Position numbers and translations under genes: made by a program. A stretch of DNA of 63,998 nucleotides, the filler included, from Chrysochromulina tobinii (lineage: Eukaryota), in the NCBI GenBank assembly GCA_001275005.1. It is 12 parts of 12 records of this genome, joined end to end, with 100 filler letters (N's around TTAATTAATTAA, not from the genome) between each part and the next. Parts side by side here need not be neighbours in the genome. Positions count along the whole stretch, not along the records: positions 13,970 to 20,224 come from JWZX01000670.1; 11 more parts are not named here. The stretch is one strand, 5' to 3'. Position 1 is the first letter of the stretch. Every line of letters starts with the position of its first letter. Below the pieces are notes generated by a model, which saw only the letters and a list, made by a program, of their open reading frames with translations, made no database searches and was not told the DNA's origin. This document shows, in pieces, positions 3,801 through 57,280 of this stretch.

Positions 3801-5516
3801 CGTCAGCTCCGCACGCATCAAGTTCGGATGCTGCTCGGCTATGTCGAGCGAGGCTCGGTGGAAGTTGCGGTAGCCCATCTGAATCTGCGCGAGCAGCTCC
3901 ATGGCCTCCTCCTGCTTGAGCATCAGCTCGTTCTTGTCCGCCGCACGCCGCATGTCTGTCAGCACTTTCTCCAGCTGCATCTCATTCGCCTTGTCGGCCT
4001 CCTCATGCTCCTCGCGGCAGGTGTGGAGCTCGTCACGTAACGTCTCGTACAGCTCGGACGTGCGCCGCACATGCTCATCGAAGAGGCGGCCCGCCATCTC
4101 GAAGCGCTTGACCAGCTGCAGCGCATCCTCGTGCAGCCGCAGCCGCTGCGTCGCTTCGGCCGCCTCCACCCGCTCGAGCAAGTCCTGCGCCTGCTCCGCG
4201 CGCAAGTCAACGAGCGGTACGACCTGCGCCGCAATCACCGATTCGAGTGCCCGAGGCTCCAGGTGAGCAAAGTGGTAGAGGCGCGCGCGCAGGTACTTGC
4301 ACGCCTCGGCCACCTCGGCCGCCACCGCCGCCTCGGCCTGCTGCAGCGCGTCGTGCGAGGCGCGCGCTGACGCCTCCTCATCAGCATCGAGCTGCTCGAG
4401 CTCCTCACGAGATCGGTTGGCAGCGGCCTCGGACAGCTCCGGCGGGCGCAGCTTGCCCAGCTGCACGAGGACCGAGAAGCGGCGCTCATTGAATGCCTGC
4501 TGCTTGCTCGCCAGCTCGCTCAGCAGCAGCCGCTGCGACTGCGGCGCGAGCACCTCGGGCGAGTGCAGGTAGCTCTTGAGGGTCTGCAGCGCATTCTCGT
4601 GGCGCAGCCGACGCCACTCAAGCTTTCGTGCCTCCCATTCCCTCAGCGAGCTCTTGTGACGCTTGACGTCCTCGACGCGCAGCTTTGCGAGCAGCTCCGC
4701 GTGCACCTCGCGGTTCGCCAGGATGAGCAGGTTGACGCTGTGTGTCTCCGTCTCGACGAAGCGCTCGAGCGCCGGTGGCAGCAGGTGCGCCGTCGCCACG
4801 AGCAGCTCAAGCAGCGTCGTGAGCTCGGCCTCGACCATCTCGCGCCGCTCGTTCTCCACCTTGGTCAGGTCGCGCTCAAATTGGTCCACCCAGCCGCGCC
4901 GGCGCGTCAGCTCCTCGTCGATGCGAACCCACGCGGAGTCTACCTCGTCCATCTCCATCTGCAGCAGAAAGTCGTCGGCGAGCTCATCGAACATGCTCTT
5001 GAGCTCGGCGTCGTTGAGCACCATCAGCGCCTTGAAGGAGCGCGCGACCGCTCCCGTGCGCGCCTCGAGCTCCACCTCCATGGAGCCCATCCGCTTCTTG
5101 AACGCTTCGATCGCGTTCTCGTGCCGCGCCTTGCGGGCGATGAGCATCTCCTTCATGCCCGCGTGGTTGGTGGAGGAGACGGCCGGCATCATCTTGCCGT
5201 GATTTTGCAGCGTTTGGGACTCGCCAATCGCCACCTCCTGCTCCGTGAGCGGCGGCACGGACTGCCGCTTGCGGCCGGGCATGTCCTTGACCTTGGGTGG
5301 CGCCGGCAGGGAGGCGCCATCCTTGGCATGCGAGATCTTGGGCGCGACGAGCTTGGTCAAGAGGCCGAGCTCCGCAGTGAACGGGTTGCTCGCCATCTGC
5401 CCAGCCATCCGCGGCTCGGCCGCCGGCTCCTTCAGCGCCGCCGGCATGTTGCTGTGAGGCCCCTCAGCGCGGCGTCGCAGTCCCCAGCCAGCAAAGGACC
5501 CTGCGCTGAAAGTCAA
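843..5516 (-). CDS. CCDC180: Coiled-coil domain-containing protein 180 (DUF4455/DUF4456, flagellar-associated); true start probably ~5448 or downstream
   Basis: 1557-aa intronless coiled-coil ORF; N-terminal 'ARKARHENAIEAF', 'LFSEGGIFNPIE' and C-terminal 'TRAQRSVITARDRVYESY' resemble CCDC180. Confidence 0.8.
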   Translation of the reverse strand: MTFSAGSFAGWGLRRRAEGPHSNMPAALKEPAAEPRMAGQMASNPFTAELGLLTKLVAPKISHAKDGASLPAPPKVKDMPGRKRQSVPPLTEQEVAIGESQTLQNHGKMMPAVSSTNHAGMKEMLIARKARHENAIEAFKKRMGSMEVELEARTGAVARSFKALMVLNDAELKSMFDELADDFLLQMEMDEVDSAWVRIDEELTRRRGWVDQFERDLTKVENERREMVEAELTTLLELLVATAHLLPPALERFVETETHSVNLLILANREVHAELLAKLRVEDVKRHKSSLREWEARKLEWRRLRHENALQTLKSYLHSPEVLAPQSQRLLLSELASKQQAFNERRFSVLVQLGKLRPPELSEAAANRSREELEQLDADEEASARASHDALQQAEAAVAAEVAEACKYLRARLYHFAHLEPRALESVIAAQVVPLVDLRAEQAQDLLERVEAAEATQRLRLHEDALQLVKRFEMAGRLFDEHVRRTSELYETLRDELHTCREEHEEADKANEMQLEKVLTDMRRAADKNELMLKQEEAMELLAQIQMGYRNFHRASLDIAEQHPNLMRAELTSVHTQLIEYHQLVSNEQEGEEEEGEGEEDAEPAAASVAAPDGAPPGAPDGAPPPLMNEDQDLSGTKVLDDGEQNLWATFGFQFDEKMEAQLALEDEQAGLDAANRNDPPPDPYLLETREGAKYRMRTDLEVAEAAMAVVRAKAAAEAEAAAAAAAAAEAEAAAAAAAADPKGKKGGAPPPAPPEAAPQPPAAEEAEPPPELPTLSAAEKISQLIPASYDGTPVLMPLTSWSSLPQDIELRVKLACECLNYHDAHAVAMGKRARHECGVLVKQLTRELDERLMSHQPRAGAVETDMAAERDQELLAHRERFVRHVKSVTSRRGMLSAALETKLETVIKAEKQHKDKLGALQRALGSEKNNHSATLNRLSREAEALHAAYTRVTREMFDELEAASKAQLKEVLGVNTKFRDSWTLFSEGGIFNPIEQARFIERLAKVDEDAKAEAVAQAERLAALREAQLQRAHEGQEGFRASFAVNKEDIVHIEQLKMQSGKCTADVRIVLAESAAQEAALDAQTEELSRLVKSVTRPGESEADNAEFDTDAARAAAQAKLARAILESSEDMRAKLLHRALFLDMLASEGMPKTAPKVSLDPPDPSTRPPPPPPPPPDPKAKKGAEPPPPPPAPDPNEPEMGEEAKPPVPLKQLVTAARAKHEGLMIAMCAKYHQERGERPITRPSLIPENAELEADKVRARLDQMVHKAHDDWYHAGKTLRKQLLVIWRVLNSVGPSVFDDLSRACRKAAYNGCRTLHKAYAPLAKDRAAKRQLHEASLKPTMRNAGAQAELRALAMAEADRSAAEVSAATELRDALLAVETEQAQVLERRLVFLSGSILKLLDAQLTEDDLIANDDPPPDIHHGIKKKLRMETREMFPHPGQPQAGRPFYTYTWPGLPLGELTPDTCETRAVGADAPPESKEAIPRSLELQANQTRAQRSVITARDRVYESYRLYYAGRVREIRTACDTALTEARRWEAGWLKLVDHMEIKPPQ

Positions 5517-13869: not shown

Positions 13870-13969
13870 NNNNNNNNNNNNNNNNNNNNNNNNNNNNNNN
13901 NNNNNNNNNNNNNTTAATTAATTAANNNNNNNNNNNNNNNNNNNNNNNNNNNNNNNNNNNNNNNNNNNN
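13870..13969. other. Artificial scaffold linker (N-run/TTAATTAATTAA/N-run); the same linker recurs at ~20225, 27804, 31784, 34472, 39411, 49372, 54051, 57281, 60453, 62286
   Basis: Identical 100-nt spacer with stops in all six frames; flanking sequences are unrelated. Confidence 0.98.
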
Positions 13970-16900
13970 TGCTGGGCAAGTTGATACTGTGCCATAGACG
14001 TCGGTGGGGGTCATTGGCCAGGAGCAGACGGTGCCTCCAAAGACACAGACATTGGGCCCCTGGGTGGAGAATAGGGGACGCGTGGTCACAAAGGAGGACA
14101 CAAAAGCAAGACATCCCATTAGGGTACGGGAACTTAGCGCGCGCACATTTGAAGCTGTGTTCCCACTGATGTTGCTCGATGAGATGGCCACTGTGCCGGC
14201 ATTGACGGCGACACCGCCGCCCTGGGCAAACAACCAGCAAAAGGTGAGTCTAAAGGCGATGGGAACGTATGAGCGTGAGCGCGCACATTGCTAGCTATGT
14301 TTTCATTGATGGTGCACGATGAGAAGGTCACCGTGCCACGCTCGACAAAGACACCGCCGCCCTGTAAACAACGAGCAAACGTGAGTCTGCCATGTGAGGA
14401 GGAAATCTACTCTGAGGCACGTACATCATGCTGTAGTTGACCAGAGCATCGGCCGCAATTGTGCAAACGAGAATCGAGGTAAGAAATGTCAGCCATTTCC
14501 CCATCAGGGCGATGGGAACTTCTGAACATGAGAGCGCACATTTTGAGCTCTATTCCCACTGATCGAGGAAGACGTAATCGTGACTGTGCCATAAAGGGTA
14601 TTGACACCGCCTCCCTGCAAACAACGAGCAAAACGTGAGTCTCACATTGGGGCGATGGGAAATGATAAATATAAGCACGCACTCCTTTCGCTGCGTTCCC
14701 GTAGATCGAGGAAGACGTTATCGTGACCGTGCCAGAAAAGACGTAGACACCGCCTCCCTGCAAACAACAAGCAACACGTGAGTCTCCCATGGGGATGGGG
14801 CATCTTCCCATCGGGGCGATGGGAAGTGTTCAAGGTCTCTGCGGCACGTACTCCCTGTAGTGGACCGGAGCGTCAGCCGCAGTTGTGCGAGCGAGAGTCG
14901 AGGCAAGCACGTCAGCAACTTTCCCATCGGGGCGATGGGATAATTTCAAGGTCACTGTGGCACGTACATACTGTAGTTGACCAAAGCATCGTTTGCAGTT
15001 GTGCAAGCGTGAGTCAAGGCAAGAACGTCAGCAACTTTCACATCGGGGTGATGGGAAACTTTGAACATGAGCACGCACATAGGAAGCTGTATTCCCGTAG
15101 ATCGAGGAAGACGTTATCGTGACCGTGCCGTAAGAGACGTAGACACCGCCTCCCTGCAAACAACAAGCAACACGTGAGTCTCCCATGCGGGCGATGGGAA
15201 ATTTTCAAGGTCTCTGAGTCAAGGCAAGAACGTCAGCAACTTTCACATCGGGGCGATGGGAAACTTTGAACATGAGCACGCACATAGGAAGCTGTATTCC
15301 CGTAGATCGAGGAAGACGTTATCGTGACCGTGCTGTAAGAGGCGTAGACACCGCCTCCCTGCAAACAACAAGCAACACGTGAGTCTCCCATGCGGGCGAT
15401 GGGAAATTTTCAAGGTCTCTGCGGCACGTACCTCCTGTAGTTGACCAAAGCATCGTTTGCAGTTGTGCAAGCGTGAGTCAAGGCAAGAACGTCAGCAACT
15501 TTCACATCGGGGCGATGGGGAATTTCGAAATCAGCGCGCACAGAGTTAGCTGTGTTGGAGTAGATCTGGGAGTTCACGATTGACACTGTGCCACCACTGA
15601 ATTGGACACCACCGCCCTGCAAACAACGAGCAAAACGTGAGTCTCCCGCAAACAACGAGCGAGATGTGATCTCCCATCGTGACAATGGGATCTTTTGAAC
15701 ATGAGCACGGACATAATTAAAAGCTGTATTCCCGTGGATCGAGGAAGACGTTATCGTGACCGTGCCGGAATTGCTGACGTAGACACCGCCGCCCTGCAAA
15801 CATCGAGCGGTACAAGCGAGAGTCAAGGCAAGAACGTCAGCAACTTTCACATCGGGATGATGGGAACTTTTGAACATGAGCACGCACATAGCGAGCTGTA
15901 TTCGCGTAGATCGAGGAGGACGTTATCGTGACCGTGCCGGAACCGACGTAGACACCGCCTCCCTGCAAACAACAAGCAAAACGTGAGTCTCCCATGGGGG
16001 CGATGGGAAATGTTCAAGGTCTCCTGCAGCAGGTACATAAGGCTATAGTTGACCAGAGCGTCGGCAGCAGTTGTGCGAAAGAGAGTCGAGGCAAGCACGT
16101 CAGTAATTTTCCAATAGGGGCGCTGGGAAATTTCAGGTCTCTCAGGCACGTACCGACTGTATAGTTGACCAGAGCGTGGGCCGCAGTTATGCAAGCGTGA
16201 GTCGAGGCAAGCACATAAGCAATCTTCCCATGGTCGTGATGGGAAGACCTCTCTGCGGCACGTACCCCCTGGAGTTGACCGGAGCGTCACAGCCGCGACG
16301 CAGTTGTGCAAGCGTGAGTCGAGGCACGCGCGTCAGCAATTTTCCCATCGGGGCGATGGGAAATATTCAAGGTTGCTGCGGCACGTGCATTCTGTAGTTG
16401 CCCGAAGCGTCGGCCGCAGTTGTGCAAAAGTGAGTCGAGGCAAGCTCGTCAGGAGTTTTCCCATCAGGGCGATGGGAACTCTTGAATAAGAGCACGCACA
16501 TTTGTAGCAGCTGTGTTCCCACTGATGGCGCATGATGAGATGGCCACTGTGCCACCCTGGACATTGACACCCCCACCCTGCAAACAACGAGCAAAACTTG
16601 AGTCTCCCATGAGAGCGATGGGAACTATGAGAGTTTCAGGCGCATATGGCACGTACGTCCAACTGGTAGATTGAGGCAGCACCCATCATCAACGACGGGA
16701 GTCGAATGGGGCGTGTCAGCAAGGCATCCCATTAGGGCAATGGGGAATATACAGGTCTCTGCGGCAGCCACGTACCCCCTGTACGTACCCCCTGGTGATG
16801 TTGAGCCCGATCAGTTGCACGACGCCCAACGAGCCCGGGTTGATGTACAGCACACGGCGCCGACTCGAGGAGCTTGCTTGTGCATCCAGCACGACCGAGC

Positions 16901-19655
16901 CTGCCACCTCCGCCTCGATGACAACGCTCCTGGTGACGGTGAGCTCGGCGTTGAGGAAGTAGGTGCCGGGGGCAAGGACAATGCGGCCGACGGCTGTGTT
17001 GGCGAGTGCACTGGTCAGGCCCGCGCTGGTGCTCACCGCAGTCTGCAGCTCACGGCGGTGGTTGGGCATTAGGGGTGTCTGCGGAGACCTCCAAACGGGT
17101 GGAATCGACGGTTGTGGAATGGGCAGGTACGGCGACGGTTGTGGAATGGGCAGGTACGGCGACGGTTGTGGAATGGGCAGGTACGGCGACGAGGATTGAG
17201 GTGGCGTCGGCCCAGAGTCCAGAGGGTACAGGGACGGCGTGGGTGGGGGCATCAGTCGGGGAGGCGAGGGCGGCCAGGGTGGCAAGGGCGGAGGCCGTGA
17301 CCGTGGGGTCCGCGACGCGGATGAGGGCGGCAAAGGAGTTTGCGGGAACGAAGGGGCTGTCACGAGGCTGCTGCCTGCAGAGGTGCTGGATGTGCTGGTC
17401 AGGCTGGGGACGACGCCGGCCTGGTCCTGCTGCGCACGACGGTGACTGGGCGCATGCTGGACTGCGTGCATCCCGGCAACAGGGTGGACGCTGGTTTCGG
17501 CGTTGGCCAAGACTGTCATGCCAGAGGGGTCAGGCGGGGGAGGCGGACACGTCCCGCACGCGACCGGGCAAGTGGTGCGTGCAATGGAATAGGAAGCGCA
17601 AACAGAGGGCTGTGCTAAGAAGTAGGAGCACGGCATGGAGGCGCCGCTTAAGTCAAAGGCGCCGCTGTTCACATCATCGGCGCATGGAGTGGGCGGAGGC
17701 GGCCGCGATGGCGGCATCTGCGCCGACTCTGCCCGATGCGCACCAGTCCCATCGCCATCGGGTGGTGCCGTTGTCACCACGGCACTCGACCGCGGGACGA
17801 CGACGAAAACGAGCAAGGCCAATGCGAAGCGCTGGTTACGGTGCTTCTGATTCGCAAATCGCCCGTTTGGACCGGAACGTCTCCGCGACGCGCAAATCGC
17901 CCAGACGAACGACGCAAGCCTGAGCAATACGAATGCGAGGTCAAAGCACTCCACCAACTCCCAAGGCACACCGTCCAAGTCCGCCGCAGCCTTGATGGGG
18001 TCCCCCGCAGTATCCTCGCTCGCGTTCGTCTGGTCGTACGGGAACGAGTACTTGACGTCGGCGTCCCAGATTGTGCTCGTAATGAAGAGCTCCTCGAGAG
18101 CTATCGTGAAGACCTCGCCCTTGCGCAGCCCGTAGTCGGCCGTCATCGAGTCACGCTCGGCGCGAGTGCACGCAGCGTAGCGGCAGATGGCGCACGAATC
18201 GAGGGTGGACTCACCAGACAGGTTGCAGAAGAGGCCAGTGCCGCCGACTGCGGTGGACAGGAACGGGCCCGACGCCGTGTTCGGGCGCGAGCCGTCGGTG
18301 CCACATAGCGGACCTTGCTTGATGATGTGCGCCACGAGGCGGCTTGCCATCGGCGTGGCCGCATGGAGCATCTCACGGCCAGCAGAAGGCAAGTCGGTGG
18401 GCCAGATGAAGACGAGGGACTCGGAGCAATCGTTGAGATAGCAGGTGAGTTTCGTACCCACCGCCATCGACGCATCAGGGCTCTGCGAGGCGGGGGTGTT
18501 TGCCAATGGCTCTGCCAACATGTTGCGCTCGCTGTCGACCGGGTCCAACGAGGAGGCGCGCGTCGCAAACGTGGGCGCGATGAAGAAGGCCACAAGCCGC
18601 TCGAGCACCGGCACAACATTGCTGCTGACCACCTCGAAGAAGAAGTCGTTTTGGATCTTGTCCGTGAAGGCGTTCGAGCCGCCACCCACCGAGGTGAGGA
18701 AGGTCTCGTACTCGCCCTCCTTGGGGCACGTGGCATTTGAGGGGAACAGCATGTCCTGCGCGATCGCCGGGTACTCCTTCAGCTCCGAGTAGCTGCCCGT
18801 CGGCACCTTGACTGAGGCGGAGAAGCTCGTGTTCGTGGTGGCGCTCAGTTTGTAGCCAAACAGCTTCTTCATGCCGTTGTAAAGCTCGAGGTACCAGTAC
18901 GAGCGCTTTTCCGTGTGGGCGAGCGAGAAGTTGCCCCGGTGACGCCTCGTCACGGTGGGGTTGTAGGGCATGTAGGGCGAGTCGGGCTCGGTCGCCATGA
19001 GCTTCGGCTCCGGCGACATGTAAGGGTTCAACGCATCCAGCTCCGGGCTCGGCGGCGAGGCGGAAGTGTTCGCCACGGGCTCCGCGAACAAATTGCGCTT
19101 GCACACCACCTGGTCCGACGAGGCGCGCGTCGCAAACGTAGGCGCGGTGGACAAGGCGTCAAATATGAAGAGGGCGCGATGAAGATCACACTCGCAGCCG
19201 GGGGCGCCATTGTCGCGAGCAGCGTTGGAGGTGTAGAAACATGCATTCGAGCAGATGCTAGGCGCCGTGTCAGTGCTTGGCGACACAATGCTGAAGCCGG
19301 CGGTGGGGCTCTCGATGATGTTCTTCGACGTGAAGAACAGGTACGTGTTGAGCGACATCGTCGGGAGCGCGGACGGGGTGTCGGTGCTGCTTTGAGTGCA
19401 AGTTTCGATGCGGATGCCGGGGTGCGTCGAGATGTTGGCGAGGATCATGTTGCCGAACTTGCGGCCCGTGTCCTCGCGCATGCGCATCATCGCATCGCCC
19501 ACGCGCGTCGAGAGGCCGCCGGCGCCCACGAGGGTCATGCTGTAGAAGGCAGGGAGCGAGCGGCAGCGCGGCGTGCTCACGAATCTCAAAATGCCCACGG
19601 CGCCGAGCATCGCAAACAGGAACAGGCCCTTGCCTCGCATTGTTTCGAAGGGCAA
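13970..19655 (-). CDS. Multi-exon surface protein with pectin-lyase/Pmp-like beta-helix repeats. Large exon 16776-19655, then repeat exons 16500-16577, 15888-15962, 15713-15793, 15542-15616, 15284-15358, 15079-15153, 14683-14757, 14540-14614, 14287-14361, 14147-14221, then 13970-14059 (truncated), plus candidate microexons
   Basis: RRELQ...IVLAPGTY...VVLDA...RRVLYI...GLNITRG cap; ten exons of type GGGVxVxxGTVTI(S/T)SxxIxGNTAxx, each bounded by CAG| and |GT, all phase 0. Confidence 0.85.
14060..16775 (-). repeat. Tandem array of homologous intron modules with hairpin TTCCCATCG-CCC-CGATGGGAA
   Basis: Recurrent GTGCGTGCTCATGTTCAAA.., TTCCCATCGCCCCGATGGGA, GGTCAACTACAG-(3/6 nt)-GTACGTGCCGCAGAGACC, ACTCACGTTTTGCTCGTTGTTTGCAG. 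Confidence 0.9.
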
Positions 19656-20324
19656 GTAGATGAGAGCTCTGGTGGTCGGTCCGATGCGCGCGCGCGGTCG
19701 ACGAGTCGTGGCCCTCGTCTCGATCGGCTATGAAGAGGCCGCGCTCCCAACCGTCCCACTCGCACCGCGAACTTACCGTTCATGAACGAAACTTACTTTC
19801 CTTGGAAGATTGTGTCGGCGACACGCACGACGTCCGTCCTCGGCGAGTAAACCTGGTCGCGCGTTGAAACTGTGAATTGCAGATCATCAACGCTACACAA
19901 GCAGCCTGGTGAGCGCGATAAACCCCGGTCCCTGCTAAAGCTAGACCAGGCTTACATCGCGGTCAAGGGTAGTCGACGGGGGTGTAACGGCGACGGGGGT
20001 GCTCTCGCGTCAGCGGGGCAACTTGATTACCATCGTTAGTACGCGTTAGTAGCGAGACTATGCACAACTATGCAGGGTGCCAATCGACAGATCTCGGAGC
20101 GTAGACCCCCGAACCGCGGAAATTCGGCTTGCATCGTTTAAGGTAGTCCGCTCGCACTCATTAGGGTAATTTTGGAAATCAGCCCTACATAAATCAATGA
20201 GTCCCAAGGCCCCCGGGGCGGGGGNNNNNNNNNNNNNNNNNNNNNNNNNNNNNNNNNNNNNNNNNNNNTTAATTAATTAANNNNNNNNNNNNNNNNNNNN
20301 NNNNNNNNNNNNNNNNNNNNNNNN

Positions 20325-56519: not shown

Positions 56520-57280
56520 AGAGGTCCGAGGGTCCCGGGAGGGTCCCGAGGGGTCCCGAGGGTCCCGGGGGGTCCCGAGGGTCCCAGAGGGTCCAGAGGG
56601 TCTTGGTCATCTGCTGTGAATTCACAGTAGGTAAGTGTGAATTCACAGCTTGAAGTGTGAATTCACAGCAGAGGGTCCCGAGGGTCCCGAGGGGTCCCGG
56701 GGGTCCCGAGGGTCCCGGAGGGTCCCGTGGGTTTGACCCTCTTGGTCTTCTGCTGTGAATTCACAGTAGGTAAGTGTGAATTCACAGCTTGAAGTGTGAA
56801 TTCACAGCAGAGGGTCCCGGAGGGTCCCGAGGGGTCCCGGGGGTCCCGAGGGTCCCGGAGGGTCCCGTGGGTTTGACCCTCTTGGTCATCTGCTGTGAAT
56901 TCACAGTATGTAAGTGTGAATTCACAGCTTGAAGTGTGAATTCACAGCAGAGGGTCCCGGAGGGTCCAGAGGGGTCTGACCCTCTTGGTCACTGCTATGA
57001 ATTCACAGTAGTTAAGTGTGAATTCACAGAATTCACAGCAGAGGGTCCCGAGGGTCCCGAGGGTCCCGGGGGTCCCGAGGGTCCCGAGAGCGGAAACCGG
57101 ACAGGGCCGAGGGTCCCGAGGGTCCCGAGGGTCCCGAGGGTCCCGAGGGTCCCGAGGGTCCCGAGGTCCCGAGGGAAGGTCCAGAGGGTCCCGAGGGTCC
57201 CGAGGGTCCCGAGGGTCCAGGAGGGTCCAGAGGGGACACTGTCCGGGACCCCATCTTCGGAGGGTCCCGGAGGGTCCCGA
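56520..57280. repeat. Composite satellite: (GAGGGTCCC)n plus triplets of the palindrome TGTGAATTCACA, ~140-bp higher-order unit
   Basis: Direct reading; TCTTGGTC anchor at ~56601, 56740, 56880, 56983. Confidence 0.9.

What the first reader, a model, noticed from the sequence alone, without database searches (positions are those of the whole stretch)
14400..16700. Array of hypervariable single-codon (3-nt) and two-codon (6-nt) microexon cassettes inside a beta-helix surface-protein gene
SEEN (minus strand): a conserved module GGTCAACTACAG-[x]-GTACGTGCCGCAGAGACC occurs nine times between the repeat exons. The flanks are a canonical acceptor (YAG) and donor (GTACGT, once GTACCT, once GCACGT). 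The insert x differs in every copy yet is always 3 or 6 nt and never a stop: TTGGAC (16657-16662), AAT (16389-16391), GGG (16266-16268), TCG (16154-16156), CCTTAT (16037-16042), GAG (15432-15434), TAT (14968-14970), GGA (14852-14854), CATGAT (14425-14430). Four lie in a row between two repeat exons, two in another interval, and some intervals have none. All flanking exons are phase 0, so any subset keeps the frame. The codons fall between 'GNTAxx' and 'GGGV', the variable turn of Pmp/pectin-lyase-like coils. KNOWN: microexon genes (schistosome MEGs) and exon-shuffled repeat receptors (Ectocarpus ROCO LRRs) diversify surface or recognition proteins. INFERENCE: a diversification system in which one-codon exons are duplicated, mutated, lost or alternatively spliced to vary an exposed loop, e.g. 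against viruses or grazers or for prey recognition. Gene predictors would miss these exons. I am not aware of a description in haptophytes but cannot search the literature.
Basis: partly seen in the sequence, partly recalled or inferred. Interest (0 to 1): 0.93.

Follow-up and report, generated by a model that had tools for sequence, protein, structure and literature searches.

The report
One-codon exons build beta-helix loops
In a single-celled alga (Chrysochromulina), a large family of coiled, likely cell-surface proteins builds its loops from exons only one or two codons long, which are spliced into the message and differ strongly between gene copies, likely to vary a recognition surface.

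Summary
All nine 3- or 6-nt inserts lie at the stated places between splice signals. They are real exons: RNA contigs of two runs join two coil exons through exactly TAT+GGA, and two records equal related genes minus GT-AG introns, joining microexons base-exactly. Among 143 related loci, 97 of 101 distinct inserts are multiples of three; 185 one-codon cassettes hold no stop against about 16 expected. The codon diverges 2- to 5-fold faster than its flanks, and close gene copies gain and lose whole cassettes. The protein is a predicted right-handed beta-helix with these residues in one loop. No skipping was seen in the few spliced records available, so alternative splicing is unproven; diversification shown here is at DNA level. 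Function (recognition) is inferred. Ten literature searches found no haptophyte or beta-helix case. Verdict: new variant of a rare known kind, with direct splice evidence.

The parts
16776..19727 (-). Long first open frame (true start unknown); last ~97 codons are the beta-helix cap domain after an RRELQ motif; upstream part is a mosaic with an M16 peptidase fragment and a proline-rich stretch
   Evidence: RNA contigs cover 16795-17135 and 17162-17400
16657..16662 (-). microexon TTGGAC (LD), variant acceptor
   Evidence: same cassette in L049; homologous LG/NG cassettes read through in P0013 and spliced in P0010/P0012
16500..16577 (-). coil exon 1 (78 nt)
16389..16391 (-). microexon AAT (N), GC donor
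   Evidence: no spliced record of this one seen
16266..16268 (-). microexon GGG (G)
   Evidence: no spliced record of this one seen
16154..16156 (-). microexon TCG (S)
   Evidence: no spliced record of this one seen
16037..16042 (-). microexon CCTTAT (PY); GATCAT (DH) in the close copy L049
15888..15962 (-). coil exon 2 (75 nt)
15713..15793 (-). coil exon 3 (81 nt)
15542..15616 (-). coil exon 4 (75 nt)
15432..15434 (-). microexon GAG (E); TAT (Y) at the same place in L063
15284..15358 (-). coil exon 5 (75 nt)
15154..15283 (-). intron that is a copy of 15541-15359 lacking 54 nt, exactly acceptor + codon + donor: a lost cassette
15079..15153 (-). coil exon 6 (75 nt)
14968..14970 (-). microexon TAT (Y), spliced in
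   Evidence: table 5c, runs X12 and X13
14852..14854 (-). microexon GGA (G), spliced in
   Evidence: table 5c, runs X12 and X13
14683..14757 (-). coil exon 7 (75 nt)
14540..14614 (-). coil exon 8 (75 nt)
14425..14430 (-). microexon CATGAT (HD); the close copy has CAAGAT (QD), which is spliced in
   Evidence: table 5c run X14
14287..14361 (-). coil exon 9 (75 nt)
14147..14221 (-). coil exon 10 (75 nt)
13973..14059 (-). closing exon (GPNV...STCP), cut by the contig end at 13970

Best explanation
The one- and two-codon inserts are true exons that are spliced into the message, and whole intron-plus-codon cassettes are gained, lost and changed between gene copies, likely by recombination between near-identical introns, which would vary one loop of a predicted cell-surface beta-helix that likely binds a variable ligand. 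Shown: splicing of microexons to each other and to coil exons; 3n length and lack of stops; a strict intron grammar (donor type set by the exon before, acceptor type by the exon after, one shared core in nearly all introns); cassette gain and loss between copies; faster change of the codon than of its flanks. Predicted: each 75-nt exon is one coil and the microexon residues extend the loop between the third strand and the next GGGV. Inferred: each codon sits in its own recombinable unit, so loop length and content can change one residue at a time without frameshift; introns around microexons are removed one at a time and slowly; all cassettes are normally included; the ligand is a glycan or protein of prey, bacteria or viruses.
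For: Splicing: TAT+GGA between exons 6 and 7 in runs X12 and X13, CAAGAT in X14, direct join where the intron has no cassette; L038 = L001 minus three GT-AG introns, 0 mismatches in 1101 nt, GAT joined to TAT with both outer introns kept; L115 = L027 minus introns, AAC joined to TCTTAT, and GCTTCT to TGG to the coil exon; P0110 carries G,G and D,Y of the L001 gene; P0010, P0012 and P0330 keep different introns yet share the same loops. Coding constraint: 97 of 101 distinct inserts 3n; 0 stops in 185 one-codon cassettes, 15.7 expected after collapsing to 175. Grammar: 248 distinct introns in four classes, median 68, 108, 112 and 73 nt, core in 238. Turnover: L049 is 98.8% identical upstream over 2835 columns yet has 7 coils and 3 cassettes against 10 and 9. 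Rate: 0.44 differences per codon site against 0.092 in held-out flank columns and 0.238 in the most variable ones. 69% of single codons encode Y, W, G, S, D or N, like antibody binding loops (recalled). Fold: mean pLDDT 87, Z 25.3 to a right-handed beta-helix. Relatives end in a proline-rich stalk and a hydrophobic, membrane-like segment (P0037, P0047, P0063, P0085). Invariant coil positions are G, V, N, A, with no conserved charged residue.
Against: No ligand, location or phenotype was tested; the window's own C-terminus is not assembled and its start is unknown. The spliced records are assembled contigs, which drop minor isoforms, and 44 joints and 52 insert rows were not displayed, so constant inclusion rests on few junctions. 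The run of four (N, G, S, PY) was not seen spliced. The two most variable flank columns are as diverse overall (0.66, 0.65) as the codon positions (0.67, 0.70, 0.57), and pN/pS at variable coil positions is only 1.29, on positions picked after looking: positive selection is not proven. Intron-free family members lie on long contigs of 15-75 kb, so an intron-free protein alone does not show RNA origin. Many loci are repeated assemblies of similar material, and cassettes share ancestry, so counts are not independent.
Confidence: 0.65

Rival explanations
1. Combinatorial alternative splicing is the main source of diversity, as reported for truffle nank genes: each cell makes many loop variants by skipping subsets of cassettes.
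For: All exons are phase 0 and any subset keeps the frame; up to six cassettes in a row (L027); many non-consensus donors, including GC; introns are removed in differing orders and often retained; precedent in Tuber.
Against: No skipped cassette in any displayed joint or in L038, L115, P0110, P0010, P0012, P0330; strong DNA-level turnover already explains the diversity.
Confidence: 0.2
2. Neutral by-product: tandem duplication of an intron-plus-codon unit is tolerated in a flexible loop; only stops and frameshifts are purged, and codon diversity reflects weak constraint next to constrained splice signals.
For: Flanks carry splice signals, which inflates the contrast; excess over the most variable flank columns is under twofold; intron-free copies exist; orphan cassettes lie outside intact genes.
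Against: 17 of 18 changed codons in nearest pairs change the amino acid, several by 2-3 bases with flanks 1-4% apart; variation in coil exons is confined to the positions next to the same loop and face; aromatic-rich codon use; at least 32 distinct first exons.
Confidence: 0.12
3. The repeats are inserted mobile introns (Introner-like), recursive splice points or a plain satellite, and the 3-nt spacing is not coding.
For: Introns are near-identical and carry a palindromic core.
Against: The codons appear in spliced records; no zero-length insert among 213 well-scoring cassettes; all 18 core matches in the window lie in this gene, and in long loci with both ends found the cores lie between first and closing exon; intron ends depend on the neighbouring exon type.
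Confidence: 0.03

Closest known systems
[quoted passage not shown] 2012, PMID 22289772; not held, seen only as cited in passages of PMC4986451, PMC10197012, PMC13449251, PMC3689799)
   Same: Expanded repeat-protein family with many 3-nt exons, read as a diversification device
   Different: Fungal NLR-type proteins with ankyrin repeats and reported alternative splicing of tens of exons; here a haptophyte beta-helix with likely surface location, 3 to at least 14 cassettes per gene spread over several loops, one coil per exon, and turnover shown at DNA level with no skipping seen
Brown algal ROCO LRR and NB-ARC-TPR exon shuffling (PMC3341825 passages; PMC11378527 abstract)
   Same: One repeat per phase-0 exon (72 nt there, 75 nt here), copy-number change and recombination between paralogs
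   Different: No codon-sized exons in the passages seen; LRR/TPR with ROC-COR or NB-ARC domains, none found here
Schistosoma micro-exon genes, MEGs (review PMC4015677, passages)
   Same: Symmetric small exons in secreted or membrane proteins
   Different: Microexons make up to 75% of MEG coding sequence with documented skipping; here 36 nt against 759 nt of coil exons, inserted into a folded repeat
Plant microexons of 1-15 nt (PMC8831610, passages)
   Same: Missed by annotation; flanking introns retained and removed consecutively
   Different: Conserved across land plants and about half 3n; here fast-changing, repeated and all 3n within the family
Chlamydial Pmp repeats / right-handed parallel beta-helix (PF02415, PF13229)
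   Same: Coil consensus and fold
   Different: No autotransporter barrel found in complete relatives; eukaryotic, intron-split gene

Membership tests
Tuber nank codon-sized exon genes | multiple 3-nt exons present in the mRNA | tested here: met
Tuber nank codon-sized exon genes | alternative splicing of the mini-exons | tested here: inconclusive
   no skipping in the few contig-level records; tables cut
Tuber nank codon-sized exon genes | NACHT plus ankyrin architecture | tested here: not met
   Pfam gives Beta_helix and Chlam_PMP, no NACHT or ankyrin; fold is a beta-helix
Brown algal ROCO/TPR exon-shuffled receptors | one repeat per phase-0 exon, varying in number between paralogs | tested here: met
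   158 of 164 distinct coil exons 3n as parsed; 10 against 7 coils in window and L049
Brown algal ROCO/TPR exon-shuffled receptors | LRR with ROC-COR, or NB-ARC with TPR | tested here: not met
Brown algal ROCO/TPR exon-shuffled receptors | spare repeat exons on the non-coding strand | not tested
   not searched for
Schistosoma MEG | microexons form most of the coding sequence | tested here: not met
   36 nt of microexon against 759 nt of coil exon
Schistosoma MEG | symmetric (3n, phase 0) microexons | tested here: met
Chlamydial Pmp | Pmp repeat (GGAI/FxxN motifs, recalled; PF02415) | tested here: inconclusive
   variant GGGV and IxGN; PF02415 passes its cut-off in P0037 and P0047, not in P0012 or P0135
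Chlamydial Pmp | C-terminal autotransporter barrel (recalled) | tested here: not met
   complete relatives P0037 and P0047 end in a proline stalk and hydrophobic segment, no such Pfam hit; the window's own end is missing
Right-handed parallel beta-helix proteins | three-strand coils; PF13229 | tested here: met
   P0135 PF13229 32.9 bits over cut-off 25.9; model of relative P0012 Z 25.3, rmsd 2.3, 237 aligned to 6kfn
Introner-type mobile introns | same intron dispersed over unrelated genes, ends independent of host exon (recalled) | tested here: not met
   only the window and fetched loci were examined, not a whole genome

The most novel reading that the evidence does not exclude
Haptophytes carry an unrecognised variable-receptor repertoire with two tiers: whole beta-helix coils shuffle as 75-nt exons, and the binding loops are written codon by codon from recombinable one-codon exons rich in Tyr, Trp, Gly, Ser, Asp and Asn, with exon skipping adding variants in each cell and reverse transcription fixing some versions as intron-free genes; it would serve recognition of viruses, bacteria or prey and would be convergent with truffle nank genes.
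Probability: 0.3. Interest if true: 0.9.

Novelty: new variant of a known kind. Interest (0 to 1): 0.74.

Why it matters
It gives base-exact splice evidence for adjacent 3-nt exons in a protist, a layout I found in print only for truffle NLR-type genes. It points to a large, misannotated family (public models are named insulin-degrading enzyme or acetyl-CoA carboxylase, or omit the codons) that may be a variable recognition system in a culturable alga. It makes two questions testable: how a spliceosome handles chains of one-codon exons, and how single-celled algae diversify surface receptors.

Tried and rejected
No whole genome was held, so no genome-wide count. Viral contigs: no cassette match and no protein relative; best viral fold match is a generic beta-helix, so no sign of a viral origin. 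Palindromic intron core as a functional RNA hairpin: 53-91% paired per position in 350 cores but almost no compensatory change in a fixed-register count; not supported. Single-sequence fold was poor (pLDDT 59); the alignment fold was used (the 40 rows include one probably bacterial protein, P0129). Treating intron-free proteins as transcripts: rejected, because several lie on 15-75 kb contigs. Cluster members of ten proteins (120 records listed) showed no clean skip of a single cassette; loop differences came with other changes. Other YAG-NNN-GT sites in the window lack the family flanks. Runs X15 and X16 and all DNA runs were never laid, so no habitat claim and no DNA-run control for the joined form. 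L049 could be a paralog or another strain's allele; undecided (C. tobin is described as haploid, PMC4580454 passages). Earlier-findings searches by sequence and by family words found nothing.

Full report
Observation. The minus strand of 13970-17100 holds ten repeat exons of 75, 78 or 81 nt, each reading GGGV...N-x-A-x-x, all phase 0. Nine short inserts lie at the coordinates given, each between AG and GT or GC. The acceptor motif occurs 12 times in the window against 2.71 expected, 0 of 100 shuffles reaching 12; 8 are in this gene. The ninth insert (TTGGAC) has a variant acceptor. With all cassettes included the frame is open from the long first exon to the contig end. No genome was held.

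Organism and family. A search with the last 97 codons of the first exon found 262 proteins among 1145 candidates; the named ones in the 120 listed are Chrysochromulina tobinii or parva models, and the nearest atlas clusters are haptophyte. Model P0135, whose three coil exons are identical to the window's, joins coil 1 to coil 2 without N, G, S, PY, so a predictor did miss them. The fetched loci hold 32 distinct first exons; 16 representative loci carry at least 3 to 14 cassettes and 1 to 10 coil exons each.

Are the inserts coding? By eye those four, the 30-mer and one 9-mer lack the family's flanks and are chance hits. A looser search that placed the donor freely found 218 distinct cassettes, 213 scoring well: 185 of 3 nt, 26 longer multiples of three, one of 13 (the chance locus L002) and one of 4 (a misplaced donor). 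No one-codon cassette is a stop; after collapsing near-duplicates to 175, 15.7 stops are expected from position-wise base use (P 7e-8; 2e-4 under uniform codons). The cassettes share ancestry, so these P values are too small, but the direction is clear.

Are they spliced in? Contigs of four RNA runs were laid on the gene. In X12 and X13 exon 6 joins exon 7 with six extra letters that read TAT GGA, the two cassettes in order. In X14 the join to exon 9 carries CAAGAT, the cassette of the close copy L019/L049. The interval without a cassette joins directly. 44 joints and 52 insert rows were not displayed, and the run of four was not seen. Independent records: L038 equals L001 minus three GT-AG introns with 0 mismatches in 1101 nt, and the first missing intron is the one between two 3-nt exons, both outer introns being kept; L115 equals L027 with AAC joined to TCTTAT and GCTTCT joined to TGG and to the coil exon. 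That these two records are RNA is inferred from the precise loss of introns. Protein P0110 carries G, G and D, Y of the L001 gene around one retained GC-AG intron. P0013 reads through three cassettes (LG, NG, Y) that appear joined in P0010, P0012 and P0330, which retain different introns. No record skips a cassette, but assembled contigs hide minor forms. Against over-reading: fully intron-free members lie on contigs of 15-75 kb, likely copies made through RNA.

Anatomy and turnover. 248 distinct introns fall into four classes: coil-coil (46, median 68 nt), coil-micro (62, 108), micro-micro (81, 112), micro-coil (59, 73). The donor type follows the preceding exon (106 of 108 after coils, 125 of 140 after microexons), the acceptor type the next exon, and 238 share a central core. 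A crossover in that core would yield any class in frame (inference). The window shows the products: intron 15283-15154 is a copy of 15541-15359 lacking 54 nt, just acceptor, codon and donor. L049, 98.8% identical over 2835 upstream columns, lacks N, G and S through a gap with ends in homologous intron sequence, has DH for PY and QD for HD, and 7 coils; L063 has TAT for GAG within almost identical flanks. The core is confined to this gene in the window (18 of 18) and lies between first and closing exon in long loci where both were found; a few orphan cassettes occur outside intact genes.

Rate of change. In 25 mutual nearest pairs the flanks differ by 2.9% and the codons at 27 of 75 sites; 17 of 18 changed codons change the residue. 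Because pairs were chosen on flanks, I repeated it with held-out columns: 0.44 for the codon, 0.092 for flanks, 0.238 for the most variable flank columns, the codon higher in 199 of 200 splits. The excess is thus 2- to 5-fold, and flanks are themselves constrained. In 111 coil exons of 75 nt, diversity peaks at positions 5, 7, 24 and 25; pN/pS is 1.29 at seven positions picked after looking and 0.49 elsewhere. This suggests but does not prove positive selection.

Protein. The spliced relative P0012 folds with mean pLDDT 87 into a right-handed parallel beta-helix (Z 25.3, rmsd 2.3, 237 residues to 6kfn; many lyases, tailspikes and adhesins at Z 19-24). Its microexon-encoded residues fall in non-strand stretches before each GGG, where confidence dips. 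By the usual nomenclature (recalled) this is turn T3, which with the next strand and turn forms the ligand groove of such proteins; the variable coil positions lie there too. No charged residue is conserved, which argues against an enzyme. Relatives end in a proline stalk and a hydrophobic segment. A shared fold shows no function; recognition is inferred.

Comparison. Ten searches of the held library found no haptophyte microexon or beta-helix case; subscription papers are not covered and no supplements were read. They did reveal the closest precedent: tens of alternatively spliced codon-sized exons in Tuber melanosporum NACHT-ankyrin genes (Iotti 2012, not held; passages of four citing papers). 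Brown algal ROCO genes share the one-repeat-per-exon shuffling (passages; abstract), schistosome MEGs the symmetric microexons (passages), and plant microexons the retained flanking introns (passages). The gene works like a blend of the first two but belongs to neither family. Unchecked notes of this scan list similar arrays in other protists and fungi, mostly without RNA support.

Verdict. Real and spliced; DNA-level diversification shown; alternative splicing and function open. New variant of a known kind, interest 0.74.

Noticed in passing
window 16776-19727 (-); P0004-P0006, P0008, P0017, P0059, P0066, P0079: The frames upstream of the beta-helix are mosaics with fragments of unrelated enzymes (M16 peptidase here, residues 298-391; acetyl-CoA carboxylase domains in other members), which drives wrong names in public models.
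   Followed up: partly
window 17541-17684 (-): Cysteine-rich stretch with a weak ShK-like match (E 0.19, below cut-off), preceded by a hydrophobic signal-like segment near 17830-17780.
   Followed up: partly
P0237, P0244, P0254, P0265, P0269, P0311: Intron-free coil regions on contigs of 11-75 kb, some followed by an intron-bearing unit: likely copies or conversions made through RNA; 6- and 9-nt cassettes such as PY, SY, AY, GY may be fused single codons.
   Followed up: partly
L014 2700-2850; L033 1-170; L054 400-570; L039/L051/L070 near 3900-4050: Orphan cassettes or truncated family genes embedded in unrelated sequence.
   Followed up: partly
L040, L046; P0001-P0003, P0126: Some members repeat the whole cap-plus-coils unit in tandem, joined by a proline-rich linker.
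   Followed up: no
window 56520-57280 (+): Satellite of GAGGGTCCC units interrupted by four blocks with the palindrome TGTGAATTCACA and YAG-NNN-GTAAGT-like sites.
   Followed up: no
window 13870-13969 and ten further places: The window is a chain of contigs joined by N44 - stop linker - N44 spacers, so neighbours across gaps need not be adjacent in the genome.
   Followed up: yes
L005, L031, L037, L045, L075: Longer cassettes of 12-24 nt are bounded by cysteines (CQGC, CFGNC, CASNPC, CLAGQGC, CLGCSCAC), which would form small disulfide loops.
   Followed up: no
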